Assembly (NCBI RefSeq): GCF_009914755.1
Contig: NC_060933.1
DNA: 64,000 nucleotides
Strand: one strand, 5' to 3'
Origin: the human T2T-CHM13v2.0 reference genome, Homo sapiens
The stretch's first letter is position 1; every line of letters begins with the position of its first letter. Under the pieces are notes generated by a model. That model had not been told where the DNA came from, did no database searches, and was given only the letters and a program-made list of their open reading frames with translations. Below are positions 15,859-45,369 of this stretch, piece after piece. The translations under genes and the position numbers were made by a program.

Positions 15859-15867
15859 GTGTGTGAG

Positions 15868-15919: not shown

Positions 15920-15920
<1 letters not shown>

Positions 15921-16582: not shown

Positions 16583-16599
16583 GGCCACCAGGTGGCGCA
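16583..16599 (+). promoter_or_regulatory. CTCF consensus motif
   Basis: ggccaccaggtggcgca matches the CCACCAGGTGGCGC core. Confidence 0.6.
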
Positions 16600-20770: not shown

Positions 20771-20786
20771 GCCACCAGGTGGCGCT
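20771..20786 (+). promoter_or_regulatory. CTCF consensus motif
   Basis: gccaccaggtggcgct. Confidence 0.6.
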
Positions 20787-22948
20787 GTGGACCGCTGTGC
20801 GTTCTCCCAGATGGAGCCCTAGGGGTTGGGGGACACAAGGGAGCCTTTTTCTGTTAGATTGGGGCAGGCGGGGCGAGCCTCCTAACCCTATGTCCATCTC
20901 CAGAAGCAGTATGTCTACCTCTACAACTGTCTGAACAGCGCGCTGGCAGACGGGCTGCCCTGAGTCAGCACTGGTCACGGTGCAGGAGAGGTTTGTGCCC
21001 TGTGGGATGGGGACAGCATTCCTGACACATCCACGTGGGCCTGGGCTCCCTGGAAGGGCGGCCTCCACTGGGCCCTGTGCTGGGAAGGTACAGGGTCTTG
21101 GAATAAAGACCTGTGGCCAAGCCTGAAGCTCAGTGTGTTCTGTCTGTCCATCCTCAGGCCTGGGCCCAGCGTGTGGGTCTCGTGGGCAAACATGGAGCCG
21201 GGATGGAAGCTAGGACCTGGAGTCTGGTTGAACTTGGTGACCTATGGCCCCTATGCTGTTGGTTTTTCCCCTGAAGCAATCCTCTCCCTGCTAATCCTCC
21301 AGTTTCTAAATTTCCTCAGACTTTGGTCTCTCCACGTCTAGTTTCCTGTGGTGCTAAGCCCTGGATTCAGAATCACAGCTCCAAATTGTTTGTCCTCTGC
21401 CTCATCACCCTGTACGCACCATGCTGTATGCAGTAGGGTTTATCCTGTTTCCCACTTCCCTTCTCCTGCCATCCCCAGCCTTCTCTACCTGCCAGAGCCC
21501 CCAGGGGCCACCCTCAGCCCCCACCAGGATGGAGGTGCCAGAGCTACCCTGTTACTCGGAAGGCAGGTGCTGGAGGCACCCCTCAGGCGGAGGTGCCGAG
21601 TTTTCCCTGCTCCTTCTCTGTCTCCTTCTTCCTCCCCTCTACATAAGAGGTGGGGGAGAAAGCAGGGAAGGCATATGGAGAAAGGAAAAACCAGGAGGAG
21701 CAGCAGAGACCAGAAAAGAGGGTGGGGAGGCAGCTGTCTGTCCCACACACTGTAGGACTGCACTGCATACCATGTGCATGATTGCTGGTGGCCACATGAG
21801 CTCCTGCCTGCTTCCCTGGTCAGGCTGGGAGTTTCCAGGTGCAGTGCCTGATGCTGGACACTAACTGCCCCTGGTGGAAGGCCCTGGGAGGACACAGAGA
21901 AAGCCTGGAAAGATCAGAGCAAGAGTCCCTGAAATGGAGTCGGGTCTCCCCAAGGGGAAGCGGGGAGAGCTCTTTGGCCAACCTGAGTTCCTACTAAGGT
22001 GCAACGGGTCAGAAGTCAGGAGGGTCCTTCTCAGGCCTGGTTGAAGAAGGGTACAGAGGTCGTGCTGGCTGCTCAGCCGGGAGCTTTCCCAGAACGAGAC
22101 TAAAGCACGGTGCCCTCCCAGGAGGACTAAATGCCGGTGTCCTCCATATGCCATGTTTATCAGGAGCTGAGGGTGGGCCCCCTAATGACCCTCACAAAAG
22201 CAGGCTGGAGGCTCTGCTCTGAGCTGCCCAAGTCTGTCTCAAGCAGCTGCTGCTGAGGTTGCAACAGGGCTCAACCATGGCTTTTCCACTCTGGGAAAAT
22301 CTCACATTGGAGCAGCAGGAGCTGCAAATGAGATGGAGCCAAGGCTATGGTTGAGTGAAGGAAGTGCAGGCTGGCCTGTGGTAGCTTTCTGCCATAGGGC
22401 AAAGGTGGCTCTATCTGTGAGTCTTTCTGGTCATGTAGGCCCATCCTCTAGCCTTCTTAGGAGGCTCATCTTCTACTTTCAGCGCCATGGCACCAACGGG
22501 AGGCCTAGGGTCAGGGTCTGCTCATTTCTTGGTCCGGCTATGCAGCCCCTCTAGCCCTGGGAGGTTATCGGAGAGTGGAGAGGTGTTGATGAGAGGATTC
22601 TGGCATGTGGAAGGACAGGGTGGAAGAAATCCTGGATGCCTCTGAGGTCCCAGGTTTCTGGTATACCCTCTGGCTGGACCATGGGGAGACAGGGCAAAAA
22701 AGGAAGGAGGGGTGCCCACAGCCTGCTCTAGCTCTGCACTGGGGCTTGGCTCAGCATGGGAGAGACCAGAGACAGCAAGAGGCGGCGTGAAGGAAGCACA
22801 GCCAGCTCACTATGGTCTAAGGAGAGAACAGGGATTGGCCTCAGTTTTAACCACCGTGCCCTTTGCTCACCAGGGCTCTGGGGCCGGCCAGGTCAGCCAG
22901 TTGGTGGGATTCCAGCCTCAGGGTGGCCGAGCTGCAGGTGCAGCACCC

Positions 22949-22965
22949 GGCCTCCAGGTGGCGCC
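22949..22965 (+). promoter_or_regulatory. CTCF consensus motif
   Basis: ggcctccaggtggcgcc. Confidence 0.55.
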
Positions 22966-23774
22966 AATCTGCTTACTTTGAGGTGGCCTCTTGACAAGCA
23001 GCTGAGCTGCACGCAGTCCCTCAGCCTGCCGAGGTCCTGGGAGCAGGGATCAAGGTGGTCCCCGTAAACCTGACAGTAAACCTGACAGAGGCTGCAGGAG
23101 TGCATTTCCACCCAGGGTGCACTCAGCGAGTGGAACTCCACACCCGTTTCTTTGGAGTCAAGGCGCGACCTCTCAGGGAGGAGACTGCTCCTGGTTGCCC
23201 ACTGCCGGGTCATCCCAGCTTGCAGTGGAACCCTCCGCAGCCTGGCCTCTTCCAGGGTAGCCCCTCACTCCCCTCTCTCTTGTCCTAGGATAAGGCCGAG
23301 GAAGGCTGACGAGTTCCAGCTCTGGGGATGCCCTATCAGCTGTGTCACCTTGAACAAATCATTTCTCCTCTTGGGTCTCTGTTTCCTCCAGTGTGAAACG
23401 TGGTGAAGGCATGAGGGGCTATGGGAGCCCCAAGGCCTCTTTCAGAGATCTCCTCTGGGTCCCATGTGACCCCGTGGCTATCCCCAAAGGCAAGAGGGTC
23501 CCCAGCCCTGCAGCCAAGGCCCTGGGACACCCTTTCTAAACAAGTGCAGGTCTCTGACGGGCTGAGCTTTGCTCGCTTGGGTTTCTTTGCTTTTTTCCTT
23601 TTTTTATCTTTCCTGAATGAAATTCCTGCCAGCTCCGAAGGAAGGAGGGAAGGGAGCTAGCCGCAGCGTAGAAAGTTTCCTTGACTCCTCCTCCGGCTGG
23701 GTCTCCCTCCCTTGCCAAGCCCAGCCTGTGAAACTGAATAACGAAGATCACTCAACAAAGCCTGCTCCTCTCTG

Positions 23775-24145
23775 ACTGCACCGTCCCGCCGCCGACGCCC
23801 AGTAGAGCCCCCGGGGCGGTCCCCACCGACGGCGCAGCCCGCCGGGACCGGGAGAAAGCAGCTGCGGACACCGCGCCCGTGCGTCTGCGCGCCTGGCCGC
23901 CAGGTGACCCAGCAGCCCGGCCGCCGAGATGCCCAGCCCGCCCAGGCTCCGGGCGCTGTGACTTCGCGCCGCTGTGTGCGCCTCCCCGAGCGCCGGCTGC
24001 GCCCCCCAGCCCGGCCCGGGGCCTACCGCCTGCCCGGCCCCCTGCCACTGCCAGGAGGACGGCATCATGCTGTCTGCCGACTGCTCTTGAGCTTGGGCTG
24101 TCCGCCATACCGGGGGACCTGGATCCCCTGACGGCTTACCTGTGA
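23775..24145 (+). promoter_or_regulatory. CpG island / LGR6-derived promoter
   Basis: Very high GC and CpG density, GC box ggggcgg near 23813, directly upstream of and overlapping the LGR6-like exon 1. Confidence 0.8.
23929..24141 (+). pseudogene. LGR6: Disabled duplicate of LGR6 coding exon 1 (signal peptide and LRRNT)
   Basis: ATG 23929 reads MPSPPRLRAL* (TGA 23959-61 where LGR6 has Trp as recalled), then [29 protein letters not shown], a +1 T near 24087, then ELGLSAIPGDLDPLTAYL; donor GTGAGT intact at 24142. No further LGR6 exons recognised. Symbol is the parent gene. Confidence 0.9.
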
Positions 24146-26469
24146 GTACTGCCCGCCTGTCTCCACCTGGTACTGCGGGCTGCTGGCTTGCACCCAGTCC
24201 TGGCCTCAGCAGGACACCTGCTTGCTTGGTGCCCTGGGGCGTGGGCATCCCGGAGAGGGTTCACCCCCTTCCAAGTTGACCGTTGCGGGACTGGGGAGGG
24301 GAGAAGAGTCTGAGACTAAATATCAGGCGAGCAGGGAGACCAGGCTTCCCTGACTTGGCTTCCCCATTGGCCTCCGTGCTTGTGGGCTGACTGCGGGAGC
24401 CCAGGTTTGGCAAGGTGGGTTCTGGACCCTAAGCGGGAGGGCGCGGGGCTGGCTCCCCCATCTCCTGTTGCTGCATTCTCTTCCAGCAGAGCAGTGCCCA
24501 GGATGGTGGCTGAGGGTAAAGCTGACAGAACTGGAGGTGGAGGTGAGGGGAGCGTGCCCCAGTGGGGTGGAAATAATGTCTGTTCTTCTGCCATGGTGAG
24601 GACAACAGGGCTGTCACACTGAGGCTGGGTGGCCTTCTTTGGGGGGGGGTCCCAGAAGCTGGGAGGGGGGCCTTATCCACTCTTGTCTCCTCAGAAAGGG
24701 ACTCTGCCAGCACCATCTCCCTTTACTGGGGCCTCCCGGCTCCCCCAGGGGCCTCCCTAAAGTCATGTCCCAAGAGGCTGTGTTGGAGACACTAATTTGT
24801 GGGCAGGCGCGGAGGCTGAAAAGCAGAGAACCATTTTTAGCGTCTGAGTTGGGGTGAGATGGCCCGTGAAGGGGACCCTATTGGGGGCAGCTGTCCTGTC
24901 CGTCTGGCTCACAGGAGCTTCCCCTCAGAGCTGGAGGGCTGGGGGCTCTCGCTGCTTACCACATGGGCAGGAGGAGGGTGAGAGAGCACATTCCAGGCCA
25001 CCTACCCGCACCCCCAGCCCCGCTCTGGGGAAAGGAGACCTCCTCCAGCCCAGCTCTGCAGGCTCCATCAACTTCCTCAGAGGAGCTGGGAGCAGGTGGG
25101 AAAGCCTGGGGCCTTCTGCTGAGGGCTAGGATCCCAGAGCTCCTTCTGGCCTGAGAGAGACCCCTCATGGCTTCTAGCATGTGGGAGTTCTAGCACGTGG
25201 GAGCTTAGAGGAAGAGGACGCTGGGCGAATCTTTATAGGGGCCTAGCAAGAATTTGTGGAACTAAAAGGATGCTCAGTGTTGGCAGTGTCCTGGTGGGAG
25301 GCAGAGGGTCCCAGATGGCAACTCTTCATGGGGCTCCTCTCCAAATGTCCCTGTCCCTAGGTTGGGATGTCCTCCTCCACTCCAAAAGGCACAGGCTGTG
25401 GGCCAGGTAAGGGAGTGAGAAGAGAAAAATAATGCCCATCTTCTAGAAGGACAAATGGAATCCTTCACAGTGCAGCAGGTGACGGCGGAGGCAGTCATGG
25501 GAATAAAGCTACCAACTGCACAGAGGCTGGGTGCTCAGCATCTGGCAAAGCAGGGCAGGCTCCGGCCCCAGCCCACACCCAGGCCAGCCCTGCTTTCAGC
25601 AGTTTTCTATCCTGGGAGTATGTGACATTGGTTCATTGGAAGACAGGGTCCTGTGGCTAAAGAGTTTAGATATGACTTCTGTGGAGCCTTTCTCTGGGTG
25701 AGCTGAAGGAAGGTCCCTTGCCTGGGTTGAAGGGGCAGGGGAGATAAGGCCTTCCAGAGCTTCCTTTCCCAGTGTTAAGTCTTCCTAGACTGATTAATGA
25801 TCCTTTTTCTAGAAGGACCTGGGGGAGGAGGTACACTGTCACCTTTGGAATTCAAGCATCCTACCATCCATGCTGGCAGAAGATTTTCCCACTAACTTGT
25901 CACAATTCCCTGGGAGCTGTGAAGTCTGCATCTGGGTTCAGTGGAGGTGGGGTTTTCTGAGCTGGTCTGTGTCTTCCTGGGGATTGAGAAAGCCCCCCTC
26001 TCTCTCAAGACTCAGGGGATGCTTCTGAGAATGGCGGAGAGAAGAGAGGGAGTGGGAGCTAGAAAGAGTACGATGGGTCCTGAGGCAATGTGGGGAATTT
26101 AGCAGTGGGGTCTGGAATATTGGAAGGAGGTAGCAGAGGACCGTGTTCCCTGCCCTGGGCTGGGGAGGGGTCCCATCAGGATGGTGCATGAGGGATATCT
26201 ACAGTTGTCCTGAGGGTGTCTCAGAGGAGGAATTTTCTTTCTTTGCCCTCTCTGGAGAACAGCTCTACCACAAAGGCACCTGAAGGTGGGGTTGAGGGCT
26301 GGCATGGAGAAGAGCCAGGGTGGGGAAGTCTTGGGGCTCCTTTCTCTTTTCAGCGATGTTAGGAGGTGCCCACCTTGGCCCTGCCCCATGTATCCCAGCC
26401 CTTGCTGAGGACAGCACAGATTCGCATCTGATGATATAACCAGCAGTGCCTCTCTCTGGGCCACTCAAA

Positions 26470-26660
26470 CCTTGGTTCCTTCCTAGCTCTGCCACCTACT
26501 GAGAGTCACTCACTGAACACCTCTAAGCCTCAGGTTCTTGATGTGTACATGGAGAGGAGGAAGCATGTTGCTGAGAGGATTAAATGAGATAATATGTTCA
26601 GTGAAAGTCCCCACAGTGCCTGACACCCGAGGGTGACTCTGAAATGGTGGCTAGTATTAT
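26470..26660. mobile_element. MIR
   Basis: ctctgccacctact...tctaagcctcaggtt...gaggattaaatgagataat. Confidence 0.65.
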
Positions 26661-27543
26661 CATGCCTCCTGTGGGTGCTCCGTGGAGGTGGAGGTAAACT
26701 ACCAGGCCTCTCCACACCAGAGGGAAATTGAGCCTAGTGGGTGAGTGTAGAATTCAAGGGAATTGTTTGTGGCTGGAGGAAGAGAGCTGTGTGCTTGGGG
26801 AGGTGACTGTCAGGGCAACTCTTGATCAATACTTGGCTGGTTCTGGGGACTTGGAGCCCAACCAGTTGGTGCAAATTGGGGGTTGGGGATCGGGAGGGAA
26901 GGTGGGGACTTAGATCCTCCTGACACAGAGTTGAGAATGAAAAATGTTAAAACACTTGGATATGCAGGAAGTAGCAGGCCAGAGAGGACTCGAAGATCCT
27001 TAGAAGGAGCCATAGACGGAACCATAGGAGGCGCCCAGGAGCTATGGGCTCCAGAAGGTACCCGCAAGTCCTCTTGCACATTCCTTGACCTGGTCTCAAT
27101 AAAAATGACATCACATCTCTTCCCCCACTCCACGGCTGTGAGATTTTCTCTTTCTAGCCAATACCTTTCATGAAGTAGGTGCTTCCACCTCTCCATCTTT
27201 GTTCTAGGGAAGACCGGAAAGGCATCTTTATAGTCAACTGGTATTCTTTGCCTTGATACTCATGTCCAAAAACTATTACCACTTTTGGGCTCAATGCCAG
27301 GCCTGTTTGATCAAGGTTGGGAAGACACACTTCAGATACTCACAATCCTTCATATGTCTCTCTTTTTTCAACAGTTTCCTCCTAAACTGTGGTCTCAGCG
27401 AGGCTCATTGACACTCACCGGGGTTTCGACATTCTCCCTGGCTAGGGCCTGTTCTGGAAATAGACCAAGGGGGAGATGGAGCCCCTGGCCGTGGGACATC
27501 CAATCTGATGGTGATGAGAAGGCATGATGCCTCTTGTTCTATT

Positions 27544-27678
27544 CTTTTTTGTTTCTTCTTTTTTTTTAAATAAAAAAGACCAGTAATGTGCTGACTTCAT
27601 AACAAGGTTTGAGGGAGGCACTTCTCACACGTGAGCATGAAAACCCAATCGTCACGCTTCTTAACTGCAAAAGGATCA
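27544..27678 (-). pseudogene. SNORD13: U13 (SNORD13) snoRNA retrocopy with polyA tail
   Basis: Reverse complement reads atccttttgcagttaagaagcgtgacgattgggttttcatgctcacgtgtgagaagtgcctccctcaaaccttgttatgaagtcagcacattac, U13-like; T-rich tail 27544-27567; perfect TSD cctcttgttctatt at 27530-27543 and 27679-27692. Symbol is the parent gene. Confidence 0.85.
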
Positions 27679-28234
27679 CCTCTTGTTCTATTGTATTGCA
27701 TGTACACATGATGCACAGACAGGAATACACAGACAGCAAATAACTTGTTGGGCAGATAATCCCCGGAGTTGTTCCTGAGTAGAAAGATCTGGGTAGTTAC
27801 TCTGGGCCCCCAAGGCTGAGCAGTGTCAGTAAACAGATGGTGCCAGAAAAGGTATCTCACGCAGCTAGTTGTGAAAGACGTCAGGCTCATGCACTTGCAG
27901 TCACACCTAAGCACCCATTTTCATAGCCCACTGCCACCAGGGCTGAGGGAGGGGCCGCTACACCATGCAACCCCCACTTCAGACTGCTGTTTGCTTTCTT
28001 GGGAATTATAACTTTAAGATTGCCTGTGATAACTGATAACCACTGGACTTGTTTGAAAGGTTAGATGGTGTGTGCATGTGTGTCTGTATGTGCGTGTGTG
28101 TCTGTGTGTGTCTGCGTGTTTCTCTGTGTGTGTGTAGATACAGGGTAATTTGCAGGGGATGTCTACAGCCAAAATGATGGAGGCAGGATGCTGGAGGCAG
28201 AGAGTAAGGGGTTGTGGCATTTGCCACAACAAAG

Positions 28235-28430
28235 CAGAGTTCAAACTATCACTTACTAGCTATGTAACCCCCAGCCAGTTGATTAGCCCTTCTGTGACTT
28301 AGTTTCCTCACCTGTAAACAGGGTTAAGATCTACCTCATAGGGTTGTTGTGTGGATTCACTTAGATGATGTTTGCAAAGGGTTTGGCATAATGTCTGGTA
28401 CATGGGAAGAGCTCAATAAATGTTAGCCAG
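28235..28430. mobile_element. MIR
   Basis: cacttactagctatgtaacc...agtttcctcacctgtaaa...gctcaataaatgttagc. Confidence 0.7.
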
Positions 28431-29719
28431 TGCTGTTATTAGGATAACCAGGGCGAAGAAATGTCAGTCATGGAAGTCTTCCTGGAGGAGGAAGTCCTGG
28501 AGCTAGCATGGGAGGGAGGGAAGCAGGCCTATTCTATGAAAGGTGTAGGATAGGTGTATGTGTAGTTGCGGGCTGTGAGAGGTGCAAGAAGCTGCGAAGA
28601 AGATGGAATGAGCTCTGCTGGGAACCCAGAGTAATTTTAGGGTTTTTTTTTTTTGTTTTTTTTTTTTTTTAGAATACAGTCTGAAAAACCAGGGAGGGGA
28701 GGGGAGCACCTGATGGAAGACGCCAGCGTGCTCCCTTACATGGTCTAGACGGGCCCCTGCAGGGGCTACAGATGAGGAGGCAGAGAAACAGGCGGCCTTA
28801 ACAGGGGAGAGCCAGCCTTGGAGAGGATGTATTGTGAATTGGGGGTGGGGGTGCCAACGTGCCAGGTCTCATTTCTCACTTCCAAGGCCACCCTTCCCTG
28901 GCCCAGTCTTAGTCGCCCTTTCTAATAGATTCTAAGAGTTTGACTCCTCCTTCCGGAAACTTGGGGTTTGTGAGTTCTAATCTTCAGTCTCTCAGTTGCT
29001 ATGAGACCCTGTGCAAGTCCCAAAACTTCCCTGGACCTCAATGTCCAGAGAAGCCATGTTTTGGATGAAAAACTAGAAAGTGGGAGAGGCAGGGCGCAAT
29101 CCTCTTTGAGTCTCCTGCTCCTGGTGTGGGACAGAGAAAGCTCCCGGGGAGAGCTGCTCAGCTGCAGGCAGTGAGGGAAGGGAAGGAGGGAAGGGGAGGA
29201 CCCAGGCAGCATCCAGACCAGGGTGGGGAAGAGAACTTATTCTTAAGCAACTTATTCTTAAGCAGCTTCCTGTTCTCTTAGCCTTGAACTTGAAGCCAGG
29301 AATAGGGACAGGGATAGAAGAGCCAAGGCTTGGAGCCGCTGGCCTATGCAGATGCACTTGCTTGTCCAGCAACAGTTGGACAGGGCCTGGCCTGGGCAAT
29401 GTGCTCCGGGGTGCATGGAAAATGTGGTCATTCTTTGTCCGGGGGATTCTTCTTATTCCCTCCCATTTCTCTTTACAGAGAATTTTACACTTCCTTGCAG
29501 ACACTGAATTATTGTGTTAAATTATTATAACTTAATAGCTTGTGAAATATACAAACAACAAGATTATGCCGACATGGCTGTTAGAAGACAAGACAAATTA
29601 GCAGACTCATGCTCATTTCTGTCATTGAACAATTCGTCTCATTCCTTCCTCAAGGCGCTGCCGTTTTCCTGCTCTCCGTCCGTGGGGGTGTTTGTTTACA
29701 CATCTCTCGCAAGAAAAGC

Positions 29720-29860
29720 GCTTCTCTCTGGCTTCCCTCTGCCTCCCCCCCTCCTTCCTGCCCTCTCCCCTGCCTTCCCTTCCTCCTTCCTTCTCTCCCT
29801 CCCTCCTTTTCTCCCCGTTCCTTTCTTCCCTTCTCTCTGTCCTTCCCCCTTCCTTCCTTT
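29720..29860. repeat. CT-rich low-complexity polypyrimidine tract
   Basis: Almost only C and T over ~140 bp. Confidence 0.85.
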
Positions 29861-31641
29861 ACTGATGTAACAACCTTGGTGTGCCGTGGCTAAGCCACAC
29901 TCCACCCCTGACCTGCGGGGGATGAGTCAAACGGTCAGACTTGCCTGGGCTTGTTCCACGCTCCCCTGGCTAGACAGGCGTCTACACATTCTCAGTTAGG
30001 GGCTGGACAGGGGCAGCTGCTAGACAGGTCCTATTCTGGGCCTCTCTGAGAAAAAGTGTCCCTGAAAAGAAAGGGAGCTCCCACTTCCATGGACCCTTAG
30101 CCATGCCAAGGGGCAGTACCGGCTTTCTGCTGGTGCTGATGAGCTGTGGTGTGAACTCACGAAGGTCAGCTGATTCACGGGCCCTGGATCTCTGCTCTCC
30201 TTCCACTAAGTGGGACTCGGGCCAGCCTGCCATGAAGGAGGTAGCTGCTGCAGCTTTCAGGAAGGAACACCAGGTGTCAACCCCACCGGGTGGCCAACCC
30301 CACCTGGCTAGGACCCAGTCCCTGGTGGCTGCTCTCCCGAGAGGCGGGCAGGGCTGGGGCTAGGGGCTGTCCAGGAGTGTTCTGGACTGTCCCTTCGCCA
30401 CAATTCCCACAGGCTGCTCAGGACCGAGGCTGAGACGGGCGACCAGGACGGGATTGTATGGCTGCAGGAGGCTACACAGTCCCAGGAGGCTGCTTCTAAG
30501 AGGCCCACGTGGCCTGCATGGGGATGCGCCTGGCTGTCCAGCATGTGGTCATTTGAATTGTACATGTTTCACTGGGATGCCTACAGAAAAGTAGACAGAA
30601 GATGTGGAAAAAGTTTTTGAAATGTTGCAAACTTAGCTACTTTTAAAATAAAAAAAATAGCTTTATAATTATAAAAGCAATATGTAAATCTTAAAATAAT
30701 TTGCTACATTCTAGTAAGCATCTTATGATCTCTATGTGCCCTATAACATTATGTTGTATAGTTTAAATATATACAATAAAATCTATTTTAAAAAATAGCA
30801 GGCAATTAAATCTCATTTTAAAAAGAGTCAGTTTAACTCCCTTCTAATTTCTACCCCTCGTTTTCCCTCTGTGTGTGTGTATGTGTGTATGTCATCTTCG
30901 TTAAATGGCTCAATGCATTCCGAATATTTTTTCCGTTGTCTTCATGATATATTCATGGGAAGGGGAGTATGTGGCTTATTGCTGTTAGTTTATCAATAGA
31001 GAATGCTGGCCAAATGTCTTTAAGAGTAATGACGATCTCAATAGCGGTAATGACAGCTACCACTTTCGGAGCTCCTCCTGCCTACCAGGCACCACTGGGG
31101 TCCCTCTCTGCAGCCCCTCACGCCATCCTCCTAGTCACTTTCTGAGGTGTGTGTGGTCATCCTCCCATTTGCAGGAGGGCTCTGAAGCACAGGAAGGTTC
31201 GATACTTACCCCATGGCCGGGATAAGATGGGCCAGGGCCAGGCTGTGAACTAAGGCAGAGAAGGGGCTCTCCAGCACCTTTCCTGAGCCCTTGCCTCCTC
31301 TGCCTCTGCCCCATGGCCATCTGGTGGGTGGACACAGCTAAGCCATGGCTAGAACCCAGCATTCTCATGACTGCTTTAACCATAGAAAATCACAAGTTGC
31401 AAGCAACGGGACACACATTTACTTGTCTACATTAGCACTTGTGATGAAGATAATTCATGCTATTTTTTTCCCCATTCGGAACGTACCTGTCCTTAGAATA
31501 GTTAGAGAAGTTTTATGAGGATTGTGTAACTAGCATTAACTTAGGTCACCTAATTCTTGATCAACCAAATCGCAGGTCAAACAAAGGAGGCCTATGCCTT
31601 CATAGAAAGCATCAGTTAATGTCCATTTAAAAACTGATGCT

Positions 31642-31940
31642 GGCCGGGCCCGGTGGCTCATGCCTGTAATCCCAGCACTTTGGGAGGCCGAGGCGGGTGG
31701 ATCACGAGCTCAGGAGATCGAGACCATCCTGGCTAACACGGTGAAAACCCATCTCTATTAAAAATACAAAAATTAGCTGGGCGTGGTGGCACATGCCTGT
31801 AATCCCAGCTACTTGGGAGGCTGAAGCAGGGAGAATTGCTTGAACTCTGGAGGTGAAGGTTACAGTGAACCAAGATCGTGTCATTTCACTACAGCCTGGG
31901 TGACAGAGCGAAAGTCTGTCTCAAAAAAAAAAAACAAACA
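31642..31940 (+). mobile_element. Alu
   Basis: Full dimer, flanked by aaactgatg on both sides. Confidence 0.95.
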
Positions 31941-32032
31941 AACTGATGTTGCATCTTCCAGTCTAAAATAAAAATACATTGTTAACCATTTTTATGTTTA
32001 CAAAACCTACAGTTTTATAGTTCTAAAAGTAG

Positions 32033-32227
<195 letters not shown>

Positions 32228-32872
32228 TAAAGATCAGTCAATTAAAGCTAATTTTTAAGAAAGAATTAAGCTTATATATTCTTCCAATGTCTAACATCTA
32301 TTTTCTTATAAGTGTGTCTTATTTCATGGAAATAATGCCTCATTTATTATTTTAGTAAGTTTTGGCAACCTAGTTAACTCAGTTCACTTGTCCAGTATGT
32401 CAAATCTTCATTTTACTCTGGGACCAACTGTGAAGACATCTGGAACCAAGGGGTGTGGTAGGGGTTATATGGCTCTGTTGTTTGTAGTTAGCTTTGCATT
32501 TTTGCTTCTTGATCATTAGATCAGAAACTAGACCTCATCTCATGAGTGCTTATGTATTGATTGATTATTTGGGTCAGTCAGGGTTGCTGACATTTGAAAT
32601 GCATGCAGGGTAGGAATAAAATGGTTGTGATGCATTTGGTTAGCAAATAGCCCACTTTCCCAGGACTGATGAGAGGGACATTTGGAGGCTCATGACAGGC
32701 AGCATGATAGAGGGGAGTCAGCCTGGTCTCACCGGCAGGTCTTCAAAGCTCAGACTTTCGTGTCTGTGGAAGGCTGGGTTACACGATTTAACAAAAACAA
32801 ACCTGAAGAGTCCTCTTGTCATTGGTAAGCTCCCATCCCCAGAAATCATCCAGTATATTTCTCTCTCCACAC

Positions 32873-32991
32873 CTGGGAGACACTTTCGATTCATCTAGAA
32901 GTTTCTTGAATTGTTCTTTGGCTAGCAGCAATTTACTTTTCTTTTCCTTGTATTCTTCTTTTATTCTTGTCTTGACAAACTGTTCAAATAT
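32873..32991 (-). pseudogene. TCERG1L: Duplicated TCERG1L exon (FF domain), 119 nt
   Basis: ttttaag|[39 protein letters not shown](R)|gtgtgg; open frame with canonical splice sites. Symbol is the parent gene. Confidence 0.85.
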
Positions 32992-33021
32992 CTTAAAACA
33001 CAGACACAGAAGAAAAACATC

Positions 33022-33953
33022 TGACATTTTGGTATCTTTCATCTGACCATCCATATCCAATGTTCTCATTTAAACATTACCCAGCATCATTGTTTATAAT
33101 CAGAAACTCTGGTCCTCCTGTCTGGTGGCACTTAGAGTCTTTTGTGCCATAATGCAGCAGTATGGAGGGAGGATTTTATGGGGAAATGGGGATAGTCTTC
33201 ATGACCACAAATAAATAAATAAAGGAAAACTAAGCTGCATTGTGGGTTTTGAAAAGGTTATTATACTTCTTAACAATTCTTTTTTTCAGGGACTTTTCTA
33301 GCAGTATGACTGTTACTTGACCTTCTTTTAAAAGCATTCCCAAAATGCTCTATTTTAGATAGATTAACATTAACCAACATAATTTTTTTTAGATCGAGTC
33401 AGCATAAATTTCTAAGTCAGCCTCTAGTCGTGTTTCATCTCTTTCACCTGCATTTTATTTGCTGTTTGTCTGAAGAAAGGAAAGAGGAAAGCAAATACGA
33501 ATTGTACTATTTGTACCAAATCTTTGGGATTCATTGGCAAATAATTTCAGTGTGGTGTATTATTAAATAAAAAAAAAACTTTGTTTCCTAGGTTGAAGGT
33601 CTAATTGATACGTTTGACTTATGATGACCGTTTATGCACTTTCAAATGAATTTGCTTTCAAAATAAATGAAGAGCAGCTGTCCTTCTTTCCTCTTTTAAG
33701 TGTTCAGCTGTGGCATGCTCAGAGGTTCCTGCTGGATTCCAGCTGGAGCAGTGTGATACCCTTCTTTTTCAGCTGTTCGTGCCTTCCTTTCTTGTATCCA
33801 CCAAAGTGGAGACAAAAACATGATCTCAAAGATACACAGTACCTACTTAATTCCAGCTGATGGGAGACCAAAGAATTTGCAAGTGGATGGTTTGGTATCA
33901 CTGTAAATAAAAAGAGGGCCTGGGAATTCTTGCGATTCCAAAAAAAAAAAAAA
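33022..33953 (+). pseudogene. Processed retrocopy consisting only of an mRNA 3'UTR plus polyA (parent not certain; possibly TPM4)
   Basis: AATAAA 33906-33911, polyA from 33940, TSD aagaaaaacatc at 33010-33021 and 33954-33965; non-repeat AT-rich sequence. Confidence 0.8.
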
Positions 33954-35337
33954 AAGAAAAACATCATGAAATTGCATATTAGAAATGAAATCTTGTATTC
34001 CAAGCACAACATGAGAAAGCAGCAAGAATCTATGGCAAAAGCTGTTCTTGTTCACAGCTGCTGGAGTTATGAGCAATAGCCTTTCAGCATAGCTCTCAAG
34101 GATCCAAGCGGTCTGAATAATTAAACCTGGGTCCCCACACGGCCCGGCGTTTCTCTACATGCAGGTGCCATTTCTGGGTCAAATGTGAAACAGCCCTGCT
34201 GGAGAAACCCGGAGAATGACTTGGCTGCCCTCTCTGCAGGCGTCTGGAACCAAGTGGTGGTTTGGAACCTGTGCTGTAGGCTGCAGTGGTCCTCACTGTG
34301 GCCTCTGAGCAGCATCCGTCATGCGCGGCCTCCTCACTTTCTCATCACGGCCAGTGGCACCAGAACATAGTAGAGCACTTAGTTCATGCTAGTCACTTCC
34401 TAGGGTGACGTAATTGACATTCTCCCAAAATGAGTCTCCCAAAAATGACCTTAACTTGTGAAAAGAAAGTAAATTCTGCATCTCTGATCCCCACTTGTGA
34501 ACCTGGGTGTCTGGCACCTTGGGGAGGACTCAGGGCGCATAAGCGGCCTCTTCTGAGGAGGTCACGGGATGCCAGGCTGCCTGGGTCATCAGTGTGGAAA
34601 CAACTGGCCAGGAGGCCTGACCCTCAGGTACTGGGCACGCCCCTGTCTGACCAGAAATGCATCTCAAATGCTGCCCCAAACAGGAAAACCCTGTTCTTCA
34701 GTGGGAAGAACACGCACATCAGCCGGCAGGCAATTCTGGGCAAGTCTCCAGGGCACTTCTCCTGGAACCTGGCAGCCCACATAACGAGATGCAATCTCTT
34801 TGTGACAGGCCACAGAACCTCTTCTCTGTCAGAGTAAGATGGATCACTGTTCTAACAACTGAAAAACGGTCATTTATGGACTACAGAGTCAAAGAGGGAC
34901 AAAGTTCTTTCATTCCTCATGCTACCCCAAACTCAAGAATGTTAAAAATAAACTGAAGATAAGTGCTTATGCAAACATAAATAAAAATATCAAGAGAAAG
35001 TCCACATAGGATCCTATAAGGCCAATAAATAGCAACTGTGCACCAATCCAACCAACTGCCAGGCCGATCCTAGAATGTGACCGAGGACCAAGCAGGCAGC
35101 TTCTTCTACACTCATGCCAAGTGAGTGGGGATGAGAAAGGAAGGGCAGGCAGGTGAAAGCCTCGACCCCAGCACTGCTCAGCCCCTTCTCCTGAGCAGCT
35201 CTCTTCCCACTTTTCTTATTGTTTCAGATTCCATGTCAGTAGTGGCAAACCTTTACAGGATTATGAATACAAAATGCCACTGGTCTCCTGAAGATACAGC
35301 AGCAAAATGAAACATCCACAAATATGACTTAAATTGA

Positions 35338-35701
<364 letters not shown>

Positions 35702-37258
35702 TAATTGGCTTCTTATACCTTCAAGGCAAATAGCAATGTAAGTTCTTAGTTATCTTATATTTAACTAATAAAAAATGAATGCAGGGTTATTATCCAAATA
35801 AAAGCATGTGGCTCCATCATTAGCTAGAGTTTTGCTCTATTAATTTTAGACCTAGAGAGAAAGCCTGGCTGGCTGTGGGGTCAGGGCTCTTCAGAAATGC
35901 CTGCTTCTCTCTCTGCCTAGAACCGTTTCTCCATCTCATCAAATGCTTCTCTCTTTCCTCTCCCTTTGCTCTGTTACTTTATTTTATGCTGCTATAATTT
36001 AACATCGCAGGTTTTGTTTTTCATCCTTAACAAATTATACCAGCTTTATCCAAAGTGGAGCATGACTTTTTAAAAGAGATTCCATTGGCTATTATATCAT
36101 TGCTGTATGTTCTACCGCAATAAAACAAAACACTATTTGTTGCCATAGAAACAGGCCTGATTCACACTGCCTTGACCCTGATTCTGTGTAGGATCACCCT
36201 CTTCTCCTGTGCAGCTCATCCAGCAGAGGAAGGGCTGTGATTTTCACACCAGGGGCCTTAGCTTTCCCCATGAAAACGCTGTATGACACTAGGTCCTGTA
36301 CAGATTCTATGTCTGATACTTCTAACCCAATTTCTTCCTAAATAGGACTGTGGTCTTTGGATGGGGTCCAGCTATGATTTCTTTCCATCCCACTCCTCAT
36401 ACGAGCTGCCATGCTCCCCTTTGATGAGGTTGCAGGCACTTCTTCTGAGCACTCTCTGGACCCTCCAGTGCACTGGCTACGGCGTGGCCTGCTTCCTCCT
36501 CTTTCCCACTGGACCTTCTGGGACCAAGTTGCAGGACGTTAGGACAGGCCCACAGTTTCCTCTGGGTGATCTCACGGGGACCTTTAAAGGTTTTCCCCAG
36601 GCAATAGGTACTTAGCATGAGCTATATTCTCATCTCATCTATTTGCAGAGGACCCACCCAGGCAAGGCCAGGGCATCCCAGCCCAGGTAGGCCCAACCCC
36701 ATCAGGGCTGGCATCTGTGGTCTCTGACGATGGCCTGAGGAAGGTCCAGCCTCACAGTGCTCCCTTTGATGAGCCCTGGGTGGGATGCCCACGTCCCCCA
36801 GACATCAGGGGACCAGCCCTGCCCTGCCCATGAACCACTTCCAACCAGCAAGCAGACTGGGCCCCTGTGTTCCCAGCTGTTCTAAGAGATGTGCCTTAGC
36901 ATTTAAACTAGAATATTTGGAAGGGGCTTGATCATAAATTGTAATTTTCTTTTTGTGGTGAGGATGATCTTACTTATTCAATGTTTTTTAAAGGGACTAA
37001 CAGCCTCAAAAGGTATCTATGGCACAGAGAGAGAACAACTGGCAACAGCAAACAAGTCGGTGGTGGCACACGTGGCACGTGCCACGCACACCACACACAA
37101 CCCACACACCACACACAGCACACATGCCCCACACACCACACACACCCCAGATGTACTGATGATTTTAGACACTGCCCGGTTTATGGCTCCTGCCTCTGTC
37201 CTCCAGTGATTCTGTCACATAAAAACACAGGCTCCTTGTTATGCTTTTTCACAGCCGA

Positions 37259-37579
<321 letters not shown>

Positions 37580-38664
37580 TAAAATTGCAAAAAAGGGCGA
37601 AATATGACCAGTTATTAATGTCTATGGTTTTCCTTTGCTATAGGAAAAATATATATAACACCCAAACTCAGCTAACTCTATTGTAGCATTATTTTGAGGC
37701 TGTGATAACACATTTTGCATATTTTAAAATATTTCTTTATAGAAAATGAAACTCAGCTAGAAGACAATAAAATATTATTAATTCCAAGTTCTTGCAAGGT
37801 TCAAGTTCTGTATTCCAAGGCAGTCAATCCTGGGAACACGTCACACTGCCCAGCCTACCCCTGAGCCTGCACCAGCGAGAGGGTACAGTTCCAACGAGCG
37901 GAGTGGTGGGTCGAGGGCTCGGAATGGGAGTGAGGACAGAGCGGGAGTTGGTTACAACGAGCAACGCGGGTCCATATGACTGAGACTCTGTGGGTTCGTG
38001 CTTCACTGACACCATCTCAGGCATTTGCTTAAAGGGACTTTATGAGCAGAGGACAGAATTGAAAATAAAATGGCAATTCCCATACCCTCCATCTGGGGCT
38101 TTATCAGACTCTGCTGGTGTGAGAAATCCAGTGGACACCAACATGGGGGCCCCTGGTCACAGAACCCCTCCTCCCCTAATTAACTCTGGCTCTTCTGTTT
38201 TCAGCGGCTCTTCTTGATAGCTCACCTTCCACGTGCATCATTTCTGAACTCAAAGGGCAAAGAGAGGGCAAGATGTGGCCGCACACATGGAGTCTAACTG
38301 GGGCAGGGAAGTCCGGACCTTCCAGAGTCTATCTCAGGGCCCTTCTCAGACACGCTCCACGGGCCACACAAACCCAGGCTGTGCCCGCTGATGCTGTCAG
38401 ACCATCGGTCCCTCTCCCAGCAACAACAGGCCCCTCCTGTGAGCCAACACCATCTGTCCCTCTGTTTGATACGGAAAGCAGTGTTGGCTCAGGGACCTAC
38501 TTTGTGAAAAGCTAGGGCAGACCCCTGGCAAGTCTCTCCTTAAAATAGCCCCCGGAGAACCCCCTCTAATCAATTCCGTGTTTTGTGGGCGGTGTTTTGT
38601 AGAACTCCACCCTTCACTGTGCTGCGGTTGTTCTCTGGACCACTCCTATTTCATCAGTGTTATT

Positions 38665-39435
<771 letters not shown>

Positions 39436-39847
39436 TATTACATAAGACTTTAAGCATATAAAACCTTAAGGTCTTATGTAAGACCACCTATTTCACTATC
39501 TTTATATAATACCTGAAGTATTTCGTATTTTTAACATATGATTTATAGTCATTTGGAATGAGGGTTAATGTTCCTAAAATTTACATGTTCATCTTTAAAA
39601 GTATTTGTCTTCCAGGGTCATAACCAAATACTGAGGTAAGAATAATGACCAGAATAACCTTCCTCAGTCCCTCTAACTCTGCTTACAAGCTCGCAAGCTA
39701 CAGTACTGGAGCTGTAACTCCTCCCCACTGGCCAAATTTACAACATGGGTGTCTGTTATTCAGCAATGAAAAGCTCCCCAGATCCAGGATGCAACAGTCG
39801 CTTTCATGCTGCGTCTCTGCAGTCAAAGTGCCTTCCCACCCCGTTAC

Positions 39848-39937
39848 CTGCTTTCGTTCCTCAGAGTTGAGCAGGAGATAGCGTGGGTCAAACACGATTT
39901 TGTGTAATTCTTTCTCCCAGGTAGAAAATGCTGATAC
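39848..39937 (-). pseudogene. TCERG1L: Duplicated TCERG1L exon (FF domain), 90 nt
   Basis: ctttag|[30 protein letters not shown]|gtaacg; splices in frame to 32991. Symbol is the parent gene. Confidence 0.88.
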
Positions 39938-40384
39938 CTAAAGAAAGATATTCAATAGAGTGGCTGTTAGCATCTAATGCTAAGCCTGAAGCTGCACTGA
40001 AATGATCCACAGTTAAAAACAAGTGAACAACAAAAACCATCATTAAAGTACAATAGATTCAGTGATGTGGTGCAGTATAAGTGTTAGACATGTCAGACGT
40101 TCCAAGAAAATCAATACCTAGAACATCAGAAAATTTAATTTCTAGACTTGTGACTATTTCTTTCTTGGGTATCTTTCAGGGCTGTCTCTCCCGATCTGAA
40201 ACCCCAATTATACCTGTGAAGGCATGGCATTCTGGAACACCCCATTTCAAAAGGAGAAATTATATTTGTAAAAATTTTCAGAACCCCTACAGACCATAAC
40301 AAAGAGTAATGTCTTGAAAACAGGCTGAGTTTAGTTGATTTGTAATCAAAGTTTAACCTCTTTTAGGTAGGTCATTTTTAAAAT

Positions 40385-41450
40385 AAATTATTTTGTTTGC
40401 AATAGTTTTACATGTACTAAAAATTTGCAAGAATATTACAGAAAGTTATCATATACTCATACCCAATTTCTCACGTTGTTAACATATTAGTAGGCTAGAT
40501 TCGTCACCACTAACACTGATACATTATTACTAACAATAGTCTGCATTTATTCAGATTTCTTTAGGTTTTACCCAATTTTCTGTTTTTGCCCAGGACCCCA
40601 TCACATTTGGCTGCCATATCTCCTTGGACTCCTCTTGGCTGTGACAGGGTCTCAGACGGCCCTTGCCGTTGATGACCTTGATGGTTTGAAGAGCCCTAAT
40701 CAGGTGCATTGCAGGACGCTCCTCAGTTGGGATTTGTCTGAGGCTTTCCTCGTAAATAGCCTGGGGTTATGGGTTTTGGGAGGAAGACCACACAGATAAA
40801 TGCCATTCTCATCATGTCATAACAAGGGTACACACGCTGCTGACATGACTCTTCACTGACAGTGGTGGCTGTAGTCGGCTGGCTGAGGTCTCCCCACTGT
40901 GAAGTCCCCCTCTCCATGCTGTACTCTCTGGAAGGACGTCGCCATGCACAGCCCACACTTAGGGGTATGGGTTGTGCTCCACTTCCGAGGAGGAGAAGTA
41001 GCTACATGAGTGACTGGGAAATGTCCTGGGGGGGATACTCATCCATGCCTCCACATTACTTATGTACTCAATCTTTTATTTATATTGCTATGGACTCATG
41101 GATACTCAGCCCATGCTCGGGCTGGACTCCAGTGTGACTTTGCTTCTTTTCCTGCTCAGCTTCTTCGAGGTTGGCCTTGGTGAGCTCCCGTGGTGGGTTC
41201 CCAGCTCCTGTGTGCCTCTGACAGGTGCTCATCACTTGGCTTTTTGGGCATCTCCTTAATTTCTGCTACTAAAGATGCTCCTGGCTTATCTTCTGCATGT
41301 CCTGCCTTTGCCCTTGAATCAGTCAATTCTCCAAGAAGCTCTGGCTCCTTTCCTAGAACAGTGTTAGAAACCAAGATCTGGGCACTGGTGTGTTCATTGC
41401 TAGTGAGGTGTTGTTGCTTCTAGACTCTCTCAGCTGATAGAGCAAGGGAA
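40385..41450 (-). mobile_element. Old L1 (L1MC/ME-like) 3' fragment
   Basis: gttaacatattag...cactgatacattattactaac...aaaccaagatctgggcactgg motifs. Confidence 0.55.
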
Positions 41451-42295
41451 TGTTTAAGCCATTTAGAACATAAATGCATTCATTTAAAAACATGGACTAT
41501 GTATTCACTGTGCCTTGGGCCCCAAGCTGGGTGTTGAGGATCTTGAGAAAATAAATCAAGGAAGCCCATGGTCTAGGGTAGTGCTGGTGAGGAGATAACA
41601 GACTCTTGAGATGGCACTAGGGCCATGGCGGAGACAGACCTGGACACTAGTGGGACCCAGCAAAGACCCACAGCAGCCTGGGGAGGCGGCTTCCAGAGTG
41701 CTGCGACTTTGGAACATGAATACTCCTCAGGGTTCACAAACGAGCCTGGGGGGTATTCCAGGACCAGCTGGTAGGGGGGCAAAGGTTGGGTCATGAACTA
41801 TGGGGAATGCAAGAATTGCAAGAGGTTGAACATGCCTGGGGGTGCAGAGACAGAGGCTGAGGTGCAGGGCAGTCTGAGACATGGTTAGGAGCCTGGGCAT
41901 TCTCTTGAGAGACAGGGGAGAAGAAAATTCAGATGGAGCGTTCATTTCAGGAAGGCCACCCTGGGATCTGGGCAGGAGATGAATACCTGGCAGGGTCAGG
42001 GAAGGGAAGGTAATTGAAAGTTTACAAAAACAAAACCCCATTCACATTCTTAAAGTATTCTTCATAGAGGTACTATTTCAATAAACACATGCTTTATTTG
42101 TATATTATAACAGATGAATTTTCTTCACTGGCAATTTCTATCTTTAACTGTCAAATTTAAGCCTTTTCTGTAATACCCATGAGCTCTTTTATTGGGTGGG
42201 ATGACCCAGGGTCCAGCCAGGGATTCTCCTCCACAGAGTGAGAACACGGTGAAGCATAGCTGGGACTCAGGGCGAGGTGGCGATTCAGGGGGGTT

Positions 42296-42407
42296 TCCAG
42301 GCAGAATGGATCCGTTTAGCTTCGACTGAGTGCACCTGCCCCCAGGAGCGGGTCTCCAGGCAGAATGGATCCCTTTAGCTTTGACTAGTGCACCTGCCCC
42401 CGGGAGC
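42296..42407. repeat. Two-copy ~59-bp tandem repeat
   Basis: tccaggcagaatggatcc(g/c)tttagctt(c/t)gact...gtgcacctgccccc(a/g)ggagc twice. Confidence 0.85.
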
Positions 42408-42974
42408 ATCTGGGGCTGTTAGAGAAGCTGTGGGCAGCCTCCACTCAGCCCAATCAGATGGCACACACCCACCTCATGGGGACCTGTGCACAGCTGGATG
42501 GTCCCAGCTCTGCAGGGCGAGAGGATTAGACCCTGTGTGGCATAACGACACCAGTTTCTGGAAAATGTTGGAGTTCTAGAAGTATAATAAAATAATTTTT
42601 CAATTAATGATGTGTAGTTTTTGCCCCCGAAGGGATTTATAATCTCTATAGAAGGTCAGATAAGCCATCTCTACAATGATTACAACTCATAATGATAAAA
42701 CCAACTGTGTCATGTCAGGGACAGTTCAGGGAAGGGTGAGAGCACAGTGGCTGGGACCCAGGATGGAGGTGGGGGCTGAAGTGAAGGCTGCACAGCCATG
42801 TGTGAAACAGGGTCTTTCCCTGACCTCCAGGTGGGCGCAGGACTTCTCCCAAAGGGTCCTGACAGCTATGGGGACGAGGAGTCCTATGAACTGCTCCTGA
42901 GGGAAGCCCGTCGTTCCCGAGCCTGTGTGAAACACTTATGATGCCCAGAGAGTACATTCCATGGGGCCACGATT

Positions 42975-43180
42975 GCACACGTGTGTGTGACTATACACAC
43001 ACACATAAGCACACACACCACACATACAAACATTCACAGAGGCGCATGTACACATGCAAACACATGAACACACCCAGGACACGCTAAGATATGCATACAC
43101 AGGCACACATGTACATAGTTGCACAAATGCATACATATGTACAAAGATGCACACATTGATACACACATGCACATGTGTGC

Positions 43181-43221
<41 letters not shown>
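42975..43221. repeat. CA-rich degenerate repeat ending in (CA)n
   Basis: Direct inspection. Confidence 0.9.
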
Positions 43222-43224
<3 letters not shown>

Positions 43225-44099: not shown

Positions 44100-45360
<1,261 letters not shown>

Positions 45361-45369
45361 TAAAAACCT

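What the first reader, a model, noticed from the sequence alone, without database searches (positions are those of the whole stretch)
23775..42000. Transplanted LGR6 promoter and first exon with coding potential removed but splice donor intact: candidate chimeric lncRNA
Seen: the CpG island is retained, both LGR6-frame ATGs in exon 1 hit early stops (23929: 10 aa then TGA; 24067: 7 aa then TGA created by the +1 T), and the GTGAGT donor is perfect. Downstream sequence switches to TCERG1L-derived DNA in the opposite orientation. Candidate + strand acceptors include ttgtttcag (~35227), tgttttcag (~38203) and tctttcag (~40179). Inference: a gene assembled by segmental duplication, with LGR6-like (Wnt/R-spondin stem-cell) expression and a body antisense to TCERG1L-homologous sequence. 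Persistence of the CpGs suggests recent duplication or an unmethylated germline promoter.
Basis: partly seen in the sequence, partly recalled or inferred. Interest (0 to 1): 0.7.

Follow-up and report, generated by a model that had tools for sequence, protein, structure and literature searches.

The report
Chimeric p53 lncRNA with Drosha fossil
The known human lncRNA gene LINC00475 is stitched from copies of two chromosomes, a promoter-first exon from chromosome 1 and exons plus a perfect p53 site from chromosome 10 that likely drives its p53 response, and its first intron holds a retrocopy that starts at the predicted Drosha cut of pri-miR-21, one of five such copies that likely record microRNA-processing leftovers pasted into our genome.

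Summary
Observation confirmed; interpretation partly. This is LINC00475. Exon 1 and its CpG island copy an LGR-type first exon on chr1 (LGR6 by position); the TGA and +1 T are real. Exons 2-4 copy TCERG1L intron DNA (chr10) on the opposite strand, mostly using splice and poly(A) signals already present there. The blocks are 4-5.5% diverged, so not recent; island CpGs decayed 3 of 42 versus 136 of 360 outside, supporting an unmethylated germline promoter. Papers describe LINC00475 as p53-driven through an intronic enhancer. So promoter and enhancer come from different chromosomes. Unplanned result: 33022-33940 is an L1-type retrocopy of pri-miR-21's 3' flank, running from the predicted Drosha cut to the poly(A) site. 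Nine prospective flank searches found four more (miR-373, let-7i, let-7f-1 twice), all starting within 1 nt of the predicted cut. Neither point was found in my literature searches.

The parts
14875..29235 (+). chr1-derived block (C1:201440726-201456827, with a 1.7 kb deletion at ~22460-22474): PTP pseudogene exons, LGR6-type promoter, exon 1 and 5 kb of intron 1
   Evidence: K2P 4.9-5.1%
23775..24141 (+). CpG island and exon 1 (RefSeq exon 23958-24141); TGG>TGA at 23959, extra T near 24087, intact GT donor at 24142
   Evidence: source CpGs decayed 3 of 42 here vs 136 of 360 outside, Fisher p=2.4e-5
29236..29261 (.). chr1|chr10 junction insert: two copies of a 13-nt stretch found inverted at C10:132028247-132028259, ~940 bp beyond the chr10 breakpoint (template-switch signature)
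29262..43741 (+). chr10-derived block (C10:132029190-132043548), 3' introns of TCERG1L read on the opposite strand
   Evidence: K2P 4.1-5.5%
29923..29956 (+). AP-1 site (29923-29929) and perfect two-half-site p53 response element (29937-29956), identical at C10:132029866, inside RefSeq enhancer 29565-30764
   Evidence: chance about 0.002-0.003 per 30.5 kb; only two genomic copies found
30270..30791 (+). approximate copy of the TCERG1L-AS1 transcription unit, with its AATAAA at 30775
   Evidence: hg38 span, placed with a recalled hg38 end of TCERG1L and checked by the AATAAA at C10:132030795; approximate
32873..32991 (-). copy of the second-to-last TCERG1L coding exon (in LINC00475 intron 1)
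33022..33940 (+). L1-type retrocopy of the pri-miR-21 3' flank: starts at the predicted Drosha 3' cut (0 to -2 nt, 2-nt microhomology), AATAAA at 33906, 16-A tail, 10-12 bp target-site duplication, no hairpin; absent from the chr10 source
   Evidence: 12 differences in 915 sites
35228..35355 (+). LINC00475 exon 2; acceptor AG and donor GT present in the chr10 source
   Evidence: annotation given
38603..38782 (+). LINC00475 exon 3; acceptor AG and donor GT present in the chr10 source
   Evidence: annotation given
39848..39937 (-). copy of a TCERG1L FF-domain exon (in LINC00475 intron 3)
40594..42101 (+). LINC00475 exon 4; acceptor is CAG in the copy and AAG in the source; AATAAA at 42080 identical in the source
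   Evidence: annotation given
43740..45362 (+). second chr10 piece (C10:131992190-131993819), out of source order, joined with a 2-bp microhomology

Best explanation
LINC00475 is a chimeric non-coding gene whose CpG-island promoter and first exon are a copy from chr1 (LGR6 by position) and whose other exons and perfect intronic p53 element are a copy from TCERG1L introns on chr10; the two were likely joined by template switching in an ape or catarrhine ancestor, and the chr10 element likely acts as the p53 enhancer of the chr1 promoter. Shown by sequence: block origins, ages, lesions, pre-existing splice and poly(A) signals, the p53 element. Taken from papers: p53 induction and an intronic p53-bound enhancer. 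Inferred: that this enhancer is 29937-29956; that the island stayed unmethylated in the germline; that the strong exon-1 donor activated latent exons on the TCERG1L antisense strand; that loss of the LGR6 frame was neutral decay. Later, L1 machinery likely reverse-transcribed the polyadenylated 3' fragment that Drosha leaves after cutting pre-miR-21 out of pri-miR-21 and inserted it into intron 1.
For: Two-source map with single paralogues. Similar divergence of chr1 and chr10 blocks, 4.1-5.5%, and a junction insert templated from chr10 940 bp outside the copied block. CpG decay 3/42 vs 136/360, and equal in parent and copy (3 vs 3). 5 of 5 chr10-side splice dinucleotides and the AATAAA exist in the source. 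Perfect p53 element, none at up to 2 mismatches in 30 kb of the chr1 source. [quoted passage not shown] LINC00475 and TCERG1L-AS1 are both in a 49-gene core p53 lncRNA table (PMC10173889 Table S4). TCERG1L-AS1 has a recurrent p53 peak within 2.5 kb of its start (PMC10323904). Retrocopy: target-site duplication, A tail, start at the cut; a ~1 kb Drosha 3' fragment of pri-miR-21 ending at the distal poly(A) site is seen on northerns (PMC3413119).
Against: No reads, CAGE, ChIP or primate genomes were available, so the exon1-exon2 junction rests on the RefSeq model and the enhancer's coordinates were not matched to a published peak (the PMC12143595 supplement and Melo 2016 were not seen). No sign of selection: the identical run round the p53 site is 70 bp, outside the 25 longest of 1340 runs; island non-CpG divergence is higher (15/260, 5.8%) than elsewhere (859/25618, 3.4%; p=0.04); exons 2-4 differ from the source like their introns (3.3-4.7%). 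A second p53-like site (1 mismatch, 1-nt spacer) lies at 45633. An isoform without exon 1 is reported (PMC10886067). Published functions conflict (p53 effector vs glioma oncogene).
Confidence: 0.78

Rival explanations
1. The gene mainly inherits LGR6's Wnt/R-spondin stem-cell expression and acts as an antisense regulator of TCERG1L.
For: About 9 kb upstream and 5 kb downstream of the LGR6-type start were copied, and the island is intact. All of exons 2-4 are about 96% complementary to TCERG1L pre-mRNA introns.
Against: 0 of 4 mature exons overlap the two copied TCERG1L coding exons. The regulation found in print is p53. No paper holds both LINC00475 and LGR6. Distal LGR6 enhancers and downstream promoters outside the block were not copied (inference).
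Confidence: 0.08
2. The p53-induced RNA starts mostly at the intronic element, as TCERG1L-AS1 does on chr10, and the LGR6-type exon 1 is a minor start; the RNA is an enhancer by-product without selected function.
For: The source element has its own sense-orientation p53-induced transcript. A 1,184-nt isoform said to lack exon 1 exists. No conservation signal.
Against: The RefSeq cDNA model starts in the island and uses the 24141 donor. The island has been protected from CpG decay. Knockdown phenotypes on p21 and G1 arrest are cited (PMC5470874 passage).
Confidence: 0.2
3. For the retrocopies only: they come from uncut pri-miRNA, with reverse transcription stopping by chance or stalling at the hairpin.
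For: 5' truncation is the norm for L1 products (recalled). The miR-21 junction has a 2-nt microhomology, as truncation junctions often do. The miR-21 case was found post hoc.
Against: 4 of 4 prospectively found copies start within 1 nt of the predicted cut; crude joint chance 3e-11. The cut lies several base pairs inside the lower stem, not at its base (folds). Both let-7f-1 copies read straight through the let-7d hairpin. Both start 1 nt early, as expected for a group II precursor with a 1-nt overhang (PMC4516432).
Confidence: 0.07

Closest known systems
LINC00475 / linc-475 (Melo et al. 2016 Oncogene, seen only as cited in PMC12143595, PMC10173889, PMC9191893, PMC5470874)
   Same: It is this gene: 2,000-nt, four-exon lncRNA at 9q22.31, p53-induced through an intronic enhancer.
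   Different: From recall, newer GENCODE may class it as a transcribed pseudogene, which would mean curators saw the parent; not verified.
Primate chimeric genes made by segmental duplication (PMCHL1/2, CHRFAM7A; recalled, not read)
   Same: Pieces from distant loci joined into a new transcription unit that recruits latent splice sites.
   Different: Non-coding product; promoter and inducible enhancer come from different chromosomes and plug the gene into the p53 network.
TCERG1L-AS1 (PMC10323904, PMC10173889)
   Same: Same p53 element, same strand, same p53 induction.
   Different: About 560 nt at the source locus, started near the element; on chr9 its copy sits inside intron 1 of a longer spliced gene.
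miRNA retrocopies of mir-302a, mir-373, mir-498 (Pan and Lin 2020, PMC7692494)
   Same: L1 hallmarks; 5' ends of the mir-373/498 copies proposed to be Drosha-made.
   Different: Those contain the hairpin. The five copies here lack the upstream hairpin and run from the 3' Drosha cut to the host poly(A) site, so a hairpin search would miss them; mir-21 is not mentioned there.
let-7d-like loci K (chr17) and L (chr1) (Hertel et al. 2012, PMC3384580)
   Same: Most likely the let-7d hairpins inside the two let-7f-1 flank copies (same chromosomes; coordinates not compared).
   Different: Reported as new let-7 loci; the words 'retro' and 'pseudogene' do not occur in the main text. Their stated primate-only range fits poorly with 20-24% divergence.
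Circular-intermediate duplications (PMC7450558, PMC7188851)
   Same: chr10 pieces are in permuted order with a 2-bp microhomology at the end-to-start junction.
   Different: The outer ends are 35 kb apart in the source, not adjacent; a second chromosome is involved; not among pairs 1-12 of the table part I read.

Membership tests
Segmental duplication | >1 kb and >90% identity, with introns | tested here: met
   14.4 kb chr1 and about 15 kb chr10 at 91-95% BLAST identity
CpG-island promoter | GC >55%, CpG obs/exp >0.65 over 500 bp (thresholds recalled) | tested here: met
   23775-24275: GC 0.73, obs/exp 0.72
CpG-island promoter | unmethylated with mapped start sites | not testable with these tools
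   only the CpG-decay proxy and the RefSeq annotation
Chimeric gene made by duplication | exons of one transcript from different source loci | tested here: met
   RefSeq exon 1 in the chr1 block, exons 2-4 in the chr10 block; junction itself from annotation
Protein-coding LGR6 paralogue | open LGR6 frame and downstream exons | tested here: not met
   stop at codon 11, frameshift, block ends 5 kb into intron 1
Natural antisense RNA to TCERG1L mRNA | mature exons complementary to TCERG1L exons | tested here: not met
   0 of 4 exons overlap 32873-32991 or 39848-39937
Direct p53 target | consensus response element | tested here: met
   0 mismatches, 0 spacer at 29937
Direct p53 target | p53 occupancy of this copy and dependence on it | not testable with these tools
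   literature statements only
L1-mediated retrocopy (miR-21 flank) | target-site duplication, A tail after a poly(A) signal, empty site in the ancestral sequence | tested here: met
L1-mediated retrocopy (other four copies) | target-site duplication and end at the host poly(A) site | tested here: inconclusive
   all 4 end 16-23 nt after the host AATAAA start; duplication clear for miR-373 (null 0), weaker for C1 (0.014) and C17 (0.054), not significant for let-7i (0.52)
miRNA retrocopies of Pan and Lin 2020 | contains the precursor hairpin at whose edge it starts | tested here: not met
   no alignment of the upstream hairpin to the 200 bp before any of 5 copies
Drosha 3' cleavage product | 5' end at the 3p-strand cut | tested here: met
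   offsets 0 (miR-21, with -2 ambiguity), 0, 0, -1, -1 from a 2-nt-overhang prediction that uses recalled mature 5' ends
Circular-intermediate duplication | permuted order with outer ends adjacent in the source | tested here: not met
   order permuted, but ends 35 kb apart

The most novel reading that the evidence does not exclude
The human genome holds an unrecognised class of L1 retrocopies made from the polyadenylated 3' by-product of Drosha cleavage. They are nucleotide-exact, datable fossils of Microprocessor cut sites (including the 1-nt group II offset of let-7f-1), of processing order within clusters (let-7f-1 cut while let-7d was left uncut) and of pri-miRNA 3' ends in germline or early embryo. 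One of them sits in LINC00475, itself a primate-lineage p53 node wired from a chr1 promoter and a chr10 enhancer.
Probability: 0.6. Interest if true: 0.76.

Novelty: new variant of a known kind. Interest (0 to 1): 0.66.

Why it matters
First, it gives a concrete origin for a studied p53-network lncRNA: a new stress-responsive gene made by placing an existing enhancer 6 kb behind an unrelated CpG-island promoter, testable with one small deletion. It also warns that ChIP peaks, probes, siRNAs and guides here have 94-96% paralogues at LGR6 and TCERG1L/TCERG1L-AS1, and that intron 1 is 98.7% identical over 0.9 kb to the abundant pri-miR-21 3' fragment, which could inflate intronic signal in miR-21-high tumours such as glioma (untested). 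Second, retrocopies that start at Drosha cuts suggest that L1 copies cleaved, uncapped Pol II fragments end to end. They would let Microprocessor cut sites and pri-miRNA ends be read from genomes across tens of millions of years, and they would explain two orphan let-7d-like loci.

Tried and rejected
Recent duplication as the reason CpGs persist: rejected. Acceptors 38203 and 40179: not in the RefSeq model; 36 similar sites exist. A new protein: the longest ATG ORF in the spliced 2,000 nt is 93 aa, its exon-4 part is also open in the source; not pursued. Selection on promoter, exons or p53 site: none detected. p53 element from the chr1 block or from a transposon: none in chr1 at up to 2 mismatches; only 2 genomic matches of the 201-bp region. 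Circular-DNA origin of the chr10 block: permuted but ends not adjacent; locus not named in the text of PMC7450558 or PMC7188851. More chr10 sequence after 45362: none; old multi-copy repeats follow. Rfam found only the U13 copy in the window. Flank searches with no retrocopy: miR-24-2 (one search was swamped by Alu hits), let-7a-3/let-7b (90), miR-372 (101, only about 240 nt of flank), let-7c (102), let-7e/miR-125a (103). Dropped before counting: two 170-190 bp hits at 70-72%, three 60-70 bp hits and paralogous hairpins, and low-identity tandem-repeat hits. LINC00475 was absent from the stored, truncated part of the PMC10323904 table, so nothing is drawn from that.
Full report
1. What is there. 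The finding covers LINC00475 (NR_027341.1, four exons, 2,000 nt; annotation given, length checked). Genome searches and BLAST map the window as a mosaic: 14875-29235 copies C1:201440726-201456827; 29262-43741 copies C10:132029190-132043548; 43740-45362 copies C10:131992190-131993819; 33020-33940 matches C17:60710085-60711003. Each block had one non-self long match among the candidates scored (at most 40 per search). The chr1 exon encodes an LRRNT-bearing N-terminus closest in the PDB to LGR5; the name LGR6 comes from its chr1 position (recalled).

2. All sequence statements hold: the island, both early stops, the extra T and the donor. One of three proposed acceptors (35227) is the annotated one; 36 sites pass a similar rule. 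Of 70 exon-1 codons, 15 differ from the parent: 7 missense, 1 nonsense, 7 silent, as expected from a decaying copy of a constrained exon. The parent frame spliced to exon 2 would have run 91 codons and stopped 64 nt before the next junction, so the chimera probably never made a stable protein (inference from the recalled 50-nt NMD rule).

3. Age and methylation. Substitution divergence is 4.9-5.1% for chr1 and 4.1-5.5% for chr10 pieces (K2P). PMC7450558 (part 1 read) places duplications of 93.3-93.5% identity at the gibbon or green-monkey branch; the long blocks here are 93.4-94.7% by BLAST, so an ape or catarrhine ancestor is likely. No primate genome was available. In 23775-24141, 39 CpGs are shared and 3 source CpGs became TG/CA; outside, 224 and 136 (p=2.4e-5). 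The reverse counts are 3 and 143. The copy's island has thus decayed no faster than the parent's.

4. How it was built. The 26-bp insert at the chr1|chr10 junction is two copies of a 13-mer found inverted 940 bp outside the copied chr10 block, and the second chr10 piece joins with a 2-bp microhomology. With similar ages, this points to one template-switching event (inference). Exon 2 and 3 splice sites and the AATAAA at 42080 are present in the source; the exon-4 acceptor is AAG there and CAG here, direction unknown. The transplanted donor therefore likely switched on latent exons. Both TCERG1L exon copies lie in LINC00475 introns, so the mature RNA cannot pair with TCERG1L mRNA.

5. How it likely works. 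A scan for p53 elements (up to 2 mismatches, spacer 0-1) gave 2 hits in the 64 kb window, 0 in 30 kb of chr1 source and 3 in 40 kb of chr10 source. One is perfect, at 29937-29956, identical on chr10, 7 bp from an AP-1 site and inside RefSeq enhancer 29565-30764. Chance is about 0.002-0.003 for the 30.5 kb mosaic. PMC12143595 (passages) lists LINC00475 as regulated through an intronic enhancer, citing Melo 2016, which I did not see. PMC10173889 (passages and a Table S4 row) has both LINC00475 and TCERG1L-AS1 among 49 core p53 lncRNAs. PMC10323904 (passage and one table row) gives TCERG1L-AS1 a recurrent p53 peak within 2.5 kb of its start. Placing its hg38 span with a recalled coordinate puts its start about 370 bp past the chr10 element and its end just after an AATAAA. 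So both copies of the element appear active. That the published enhancer is this element is inferred; the supplement with coordinates (PMC12143595 Table S3) could not be seen. Against function by selection: no excess conservation anywhere. PMC10886067 (abstract, section 5, passages, part of methods; supplement not seen) reports an isoform lacking exon 1, which may be an internal start near the enhancer. PMC5470874 and PMC9191893 (passages) cite effects on p21 and G1 arrest.

6. The retrocopy. 33022-33940 is absent from the chr10 source and is flanked by a 10-12 bp duplication with a 16-A tail. Its source begins at the 3' end of the Rfam mir-21 hairpin and it is the only non-Alu copy found. A 2-nt-overhang rule puts the Drosha 3' cut between hairpin positions 67 and 68; the insert starts at 68, or at 66 if a shared TC is given to it. 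TCGA miR-21-3p isoforms in PMC8604322 S1 Table end at positions 62-69 on my conversion, which uses a recalled hairpin start. PMC3413119 (passages) shows a ~1 kb Drosha-dependent 3' fragment ending at the distal poly(A) site. Divergence is 1.3%, so it is much younger than the duplication.

7. Prospective test. I searched 9 other miRNA 3' flanks; 5 gave no copy. The other 4 searches gave four copies: miR-373 at C11:1015719-1016121 (6.1% diverged), let-7i at C6:122898568-122899219 (19%), and let-7f-1 at C17:35325393-35328239 and C1:228559111-228562399 (20% and 24%; 22% from each other, with different flanks, so independent). All 4 start within 1 nt of the predicted cut (0, 0, -1, -1), end just after the host AATAAA and lack the upstream hairpin. 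The -1 of let-7f-1 fits its group II 1-nt overhang (PMC4516432 passages). let-7i is also group II and shows 0, which is unresolved at 19% divergence. Both let-7f-1 copies contain the let-7d hairpin, which argues against stalling at hairpins. Crude joint chance is 3e-11. Limits: mature 5' ends were recalled, flanks searched were about 0.2-1.6 kb, and target-site duplications are weak in the three old copies.

8. What is known. Searches of the held library: LINC00475 91 papers; with LGR6, 0; OST-PTP + pseudogene + 9q22, 0; a pri-miR-21 retrocopy query gave 1 review, listing only, with no pri-miR-21 occurrence; a Drosha retrocopy query gave 1 paper, PMC7692494 (parts 1-3 of 6 read), which covers hairpin-containing copies of mir-302a, 373 and 498 and not mir-21; a chimeric-lncRNA query gave 5 listings, not read. 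PMC3384580 (section 8 part 1 and passages) reports let-7d-like loci on chr17 and chr1 without a retro-origin. I did not search LINC00475 with TCERG1L, subscription journals are mostly missing, and annotators may already know the LGR6 parent.

9. Verdict. The p53 wiring from two chromosomes is a new member of a known kind. The Drosha by-product retrocopies are a new variant of miRNA-related retrocopies and carry most of the interest. Interest 0.66.

Noticed in passing
window 15316-21121: LOC100128076, labelled a PTPRH pseudogene, maps exon by exon with its introns onto chr1 just upstream of the LGR6-type exon (13 of 13 exons; Y_phosphatase in 2 of 3 exons scanned). Its parent is that chr1 locus (PTPRVP by recall), not PTPRH on chr19.
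   Followed up: partly
window 6768-14873 and C9:104363742-104372810: Inverted repeat arms of about 8 kb, 2.4% diverged, bracket the mosaic; the left arm ends at the chr1 breakpoint. Younger than the insertion or gene-converted; a possible inversion substrate.
   Followed up: partly
L039 1501-1903 (C11:1015719-1016121): Retrocopy of the miR-373 3' flank from the predicted Drosha cut to the poly(A) site, 14-bp target-site duplication, tail decayed to AAC repeats, 6.1% diverged.
   Followed up: yes
L047 1501-2152 (C6:122898568-122899219): Old retrocopy of the let-7i 3' flank starting at the predicted cut, 19% diverged.
   Followed up: yes
L053/L049 (C17:35325393-35328239) and L054/L051 (C1:228559111-228562399): Two independent retrocopies from the let-7f-1 cut through an uncut let-7d hairpin to the poly(A) site; likely the let-7d-like loci K and L of Hertel 2012.
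   Followed up: yes
window 45633-45653: Second p53-like element (1 mismatch, 1-nt spacer) inside a multi-copy LTR-like repeat that begins where the chr10 block ends.
   Followed up: partly
window 33210-33911: The miR-21 insert adds several sense AATAAA signals, including the pri-miR-21 one at 33906, and acceptor-like sites (33289, 33772) to intron 1; it could serve as an alternative last exon.
   Followed up: no
window 27573-27676: U13 snoRNA copy on the minus strand with an A-rich end, inside the chr1 block.
   Followed up: no
window 53772-56001: BEND3P2 has closer relatives on chr10 (51.5 Mb and 80.55 Mb, 90-91%) than its chr6 match (85%).
   Followed up: no
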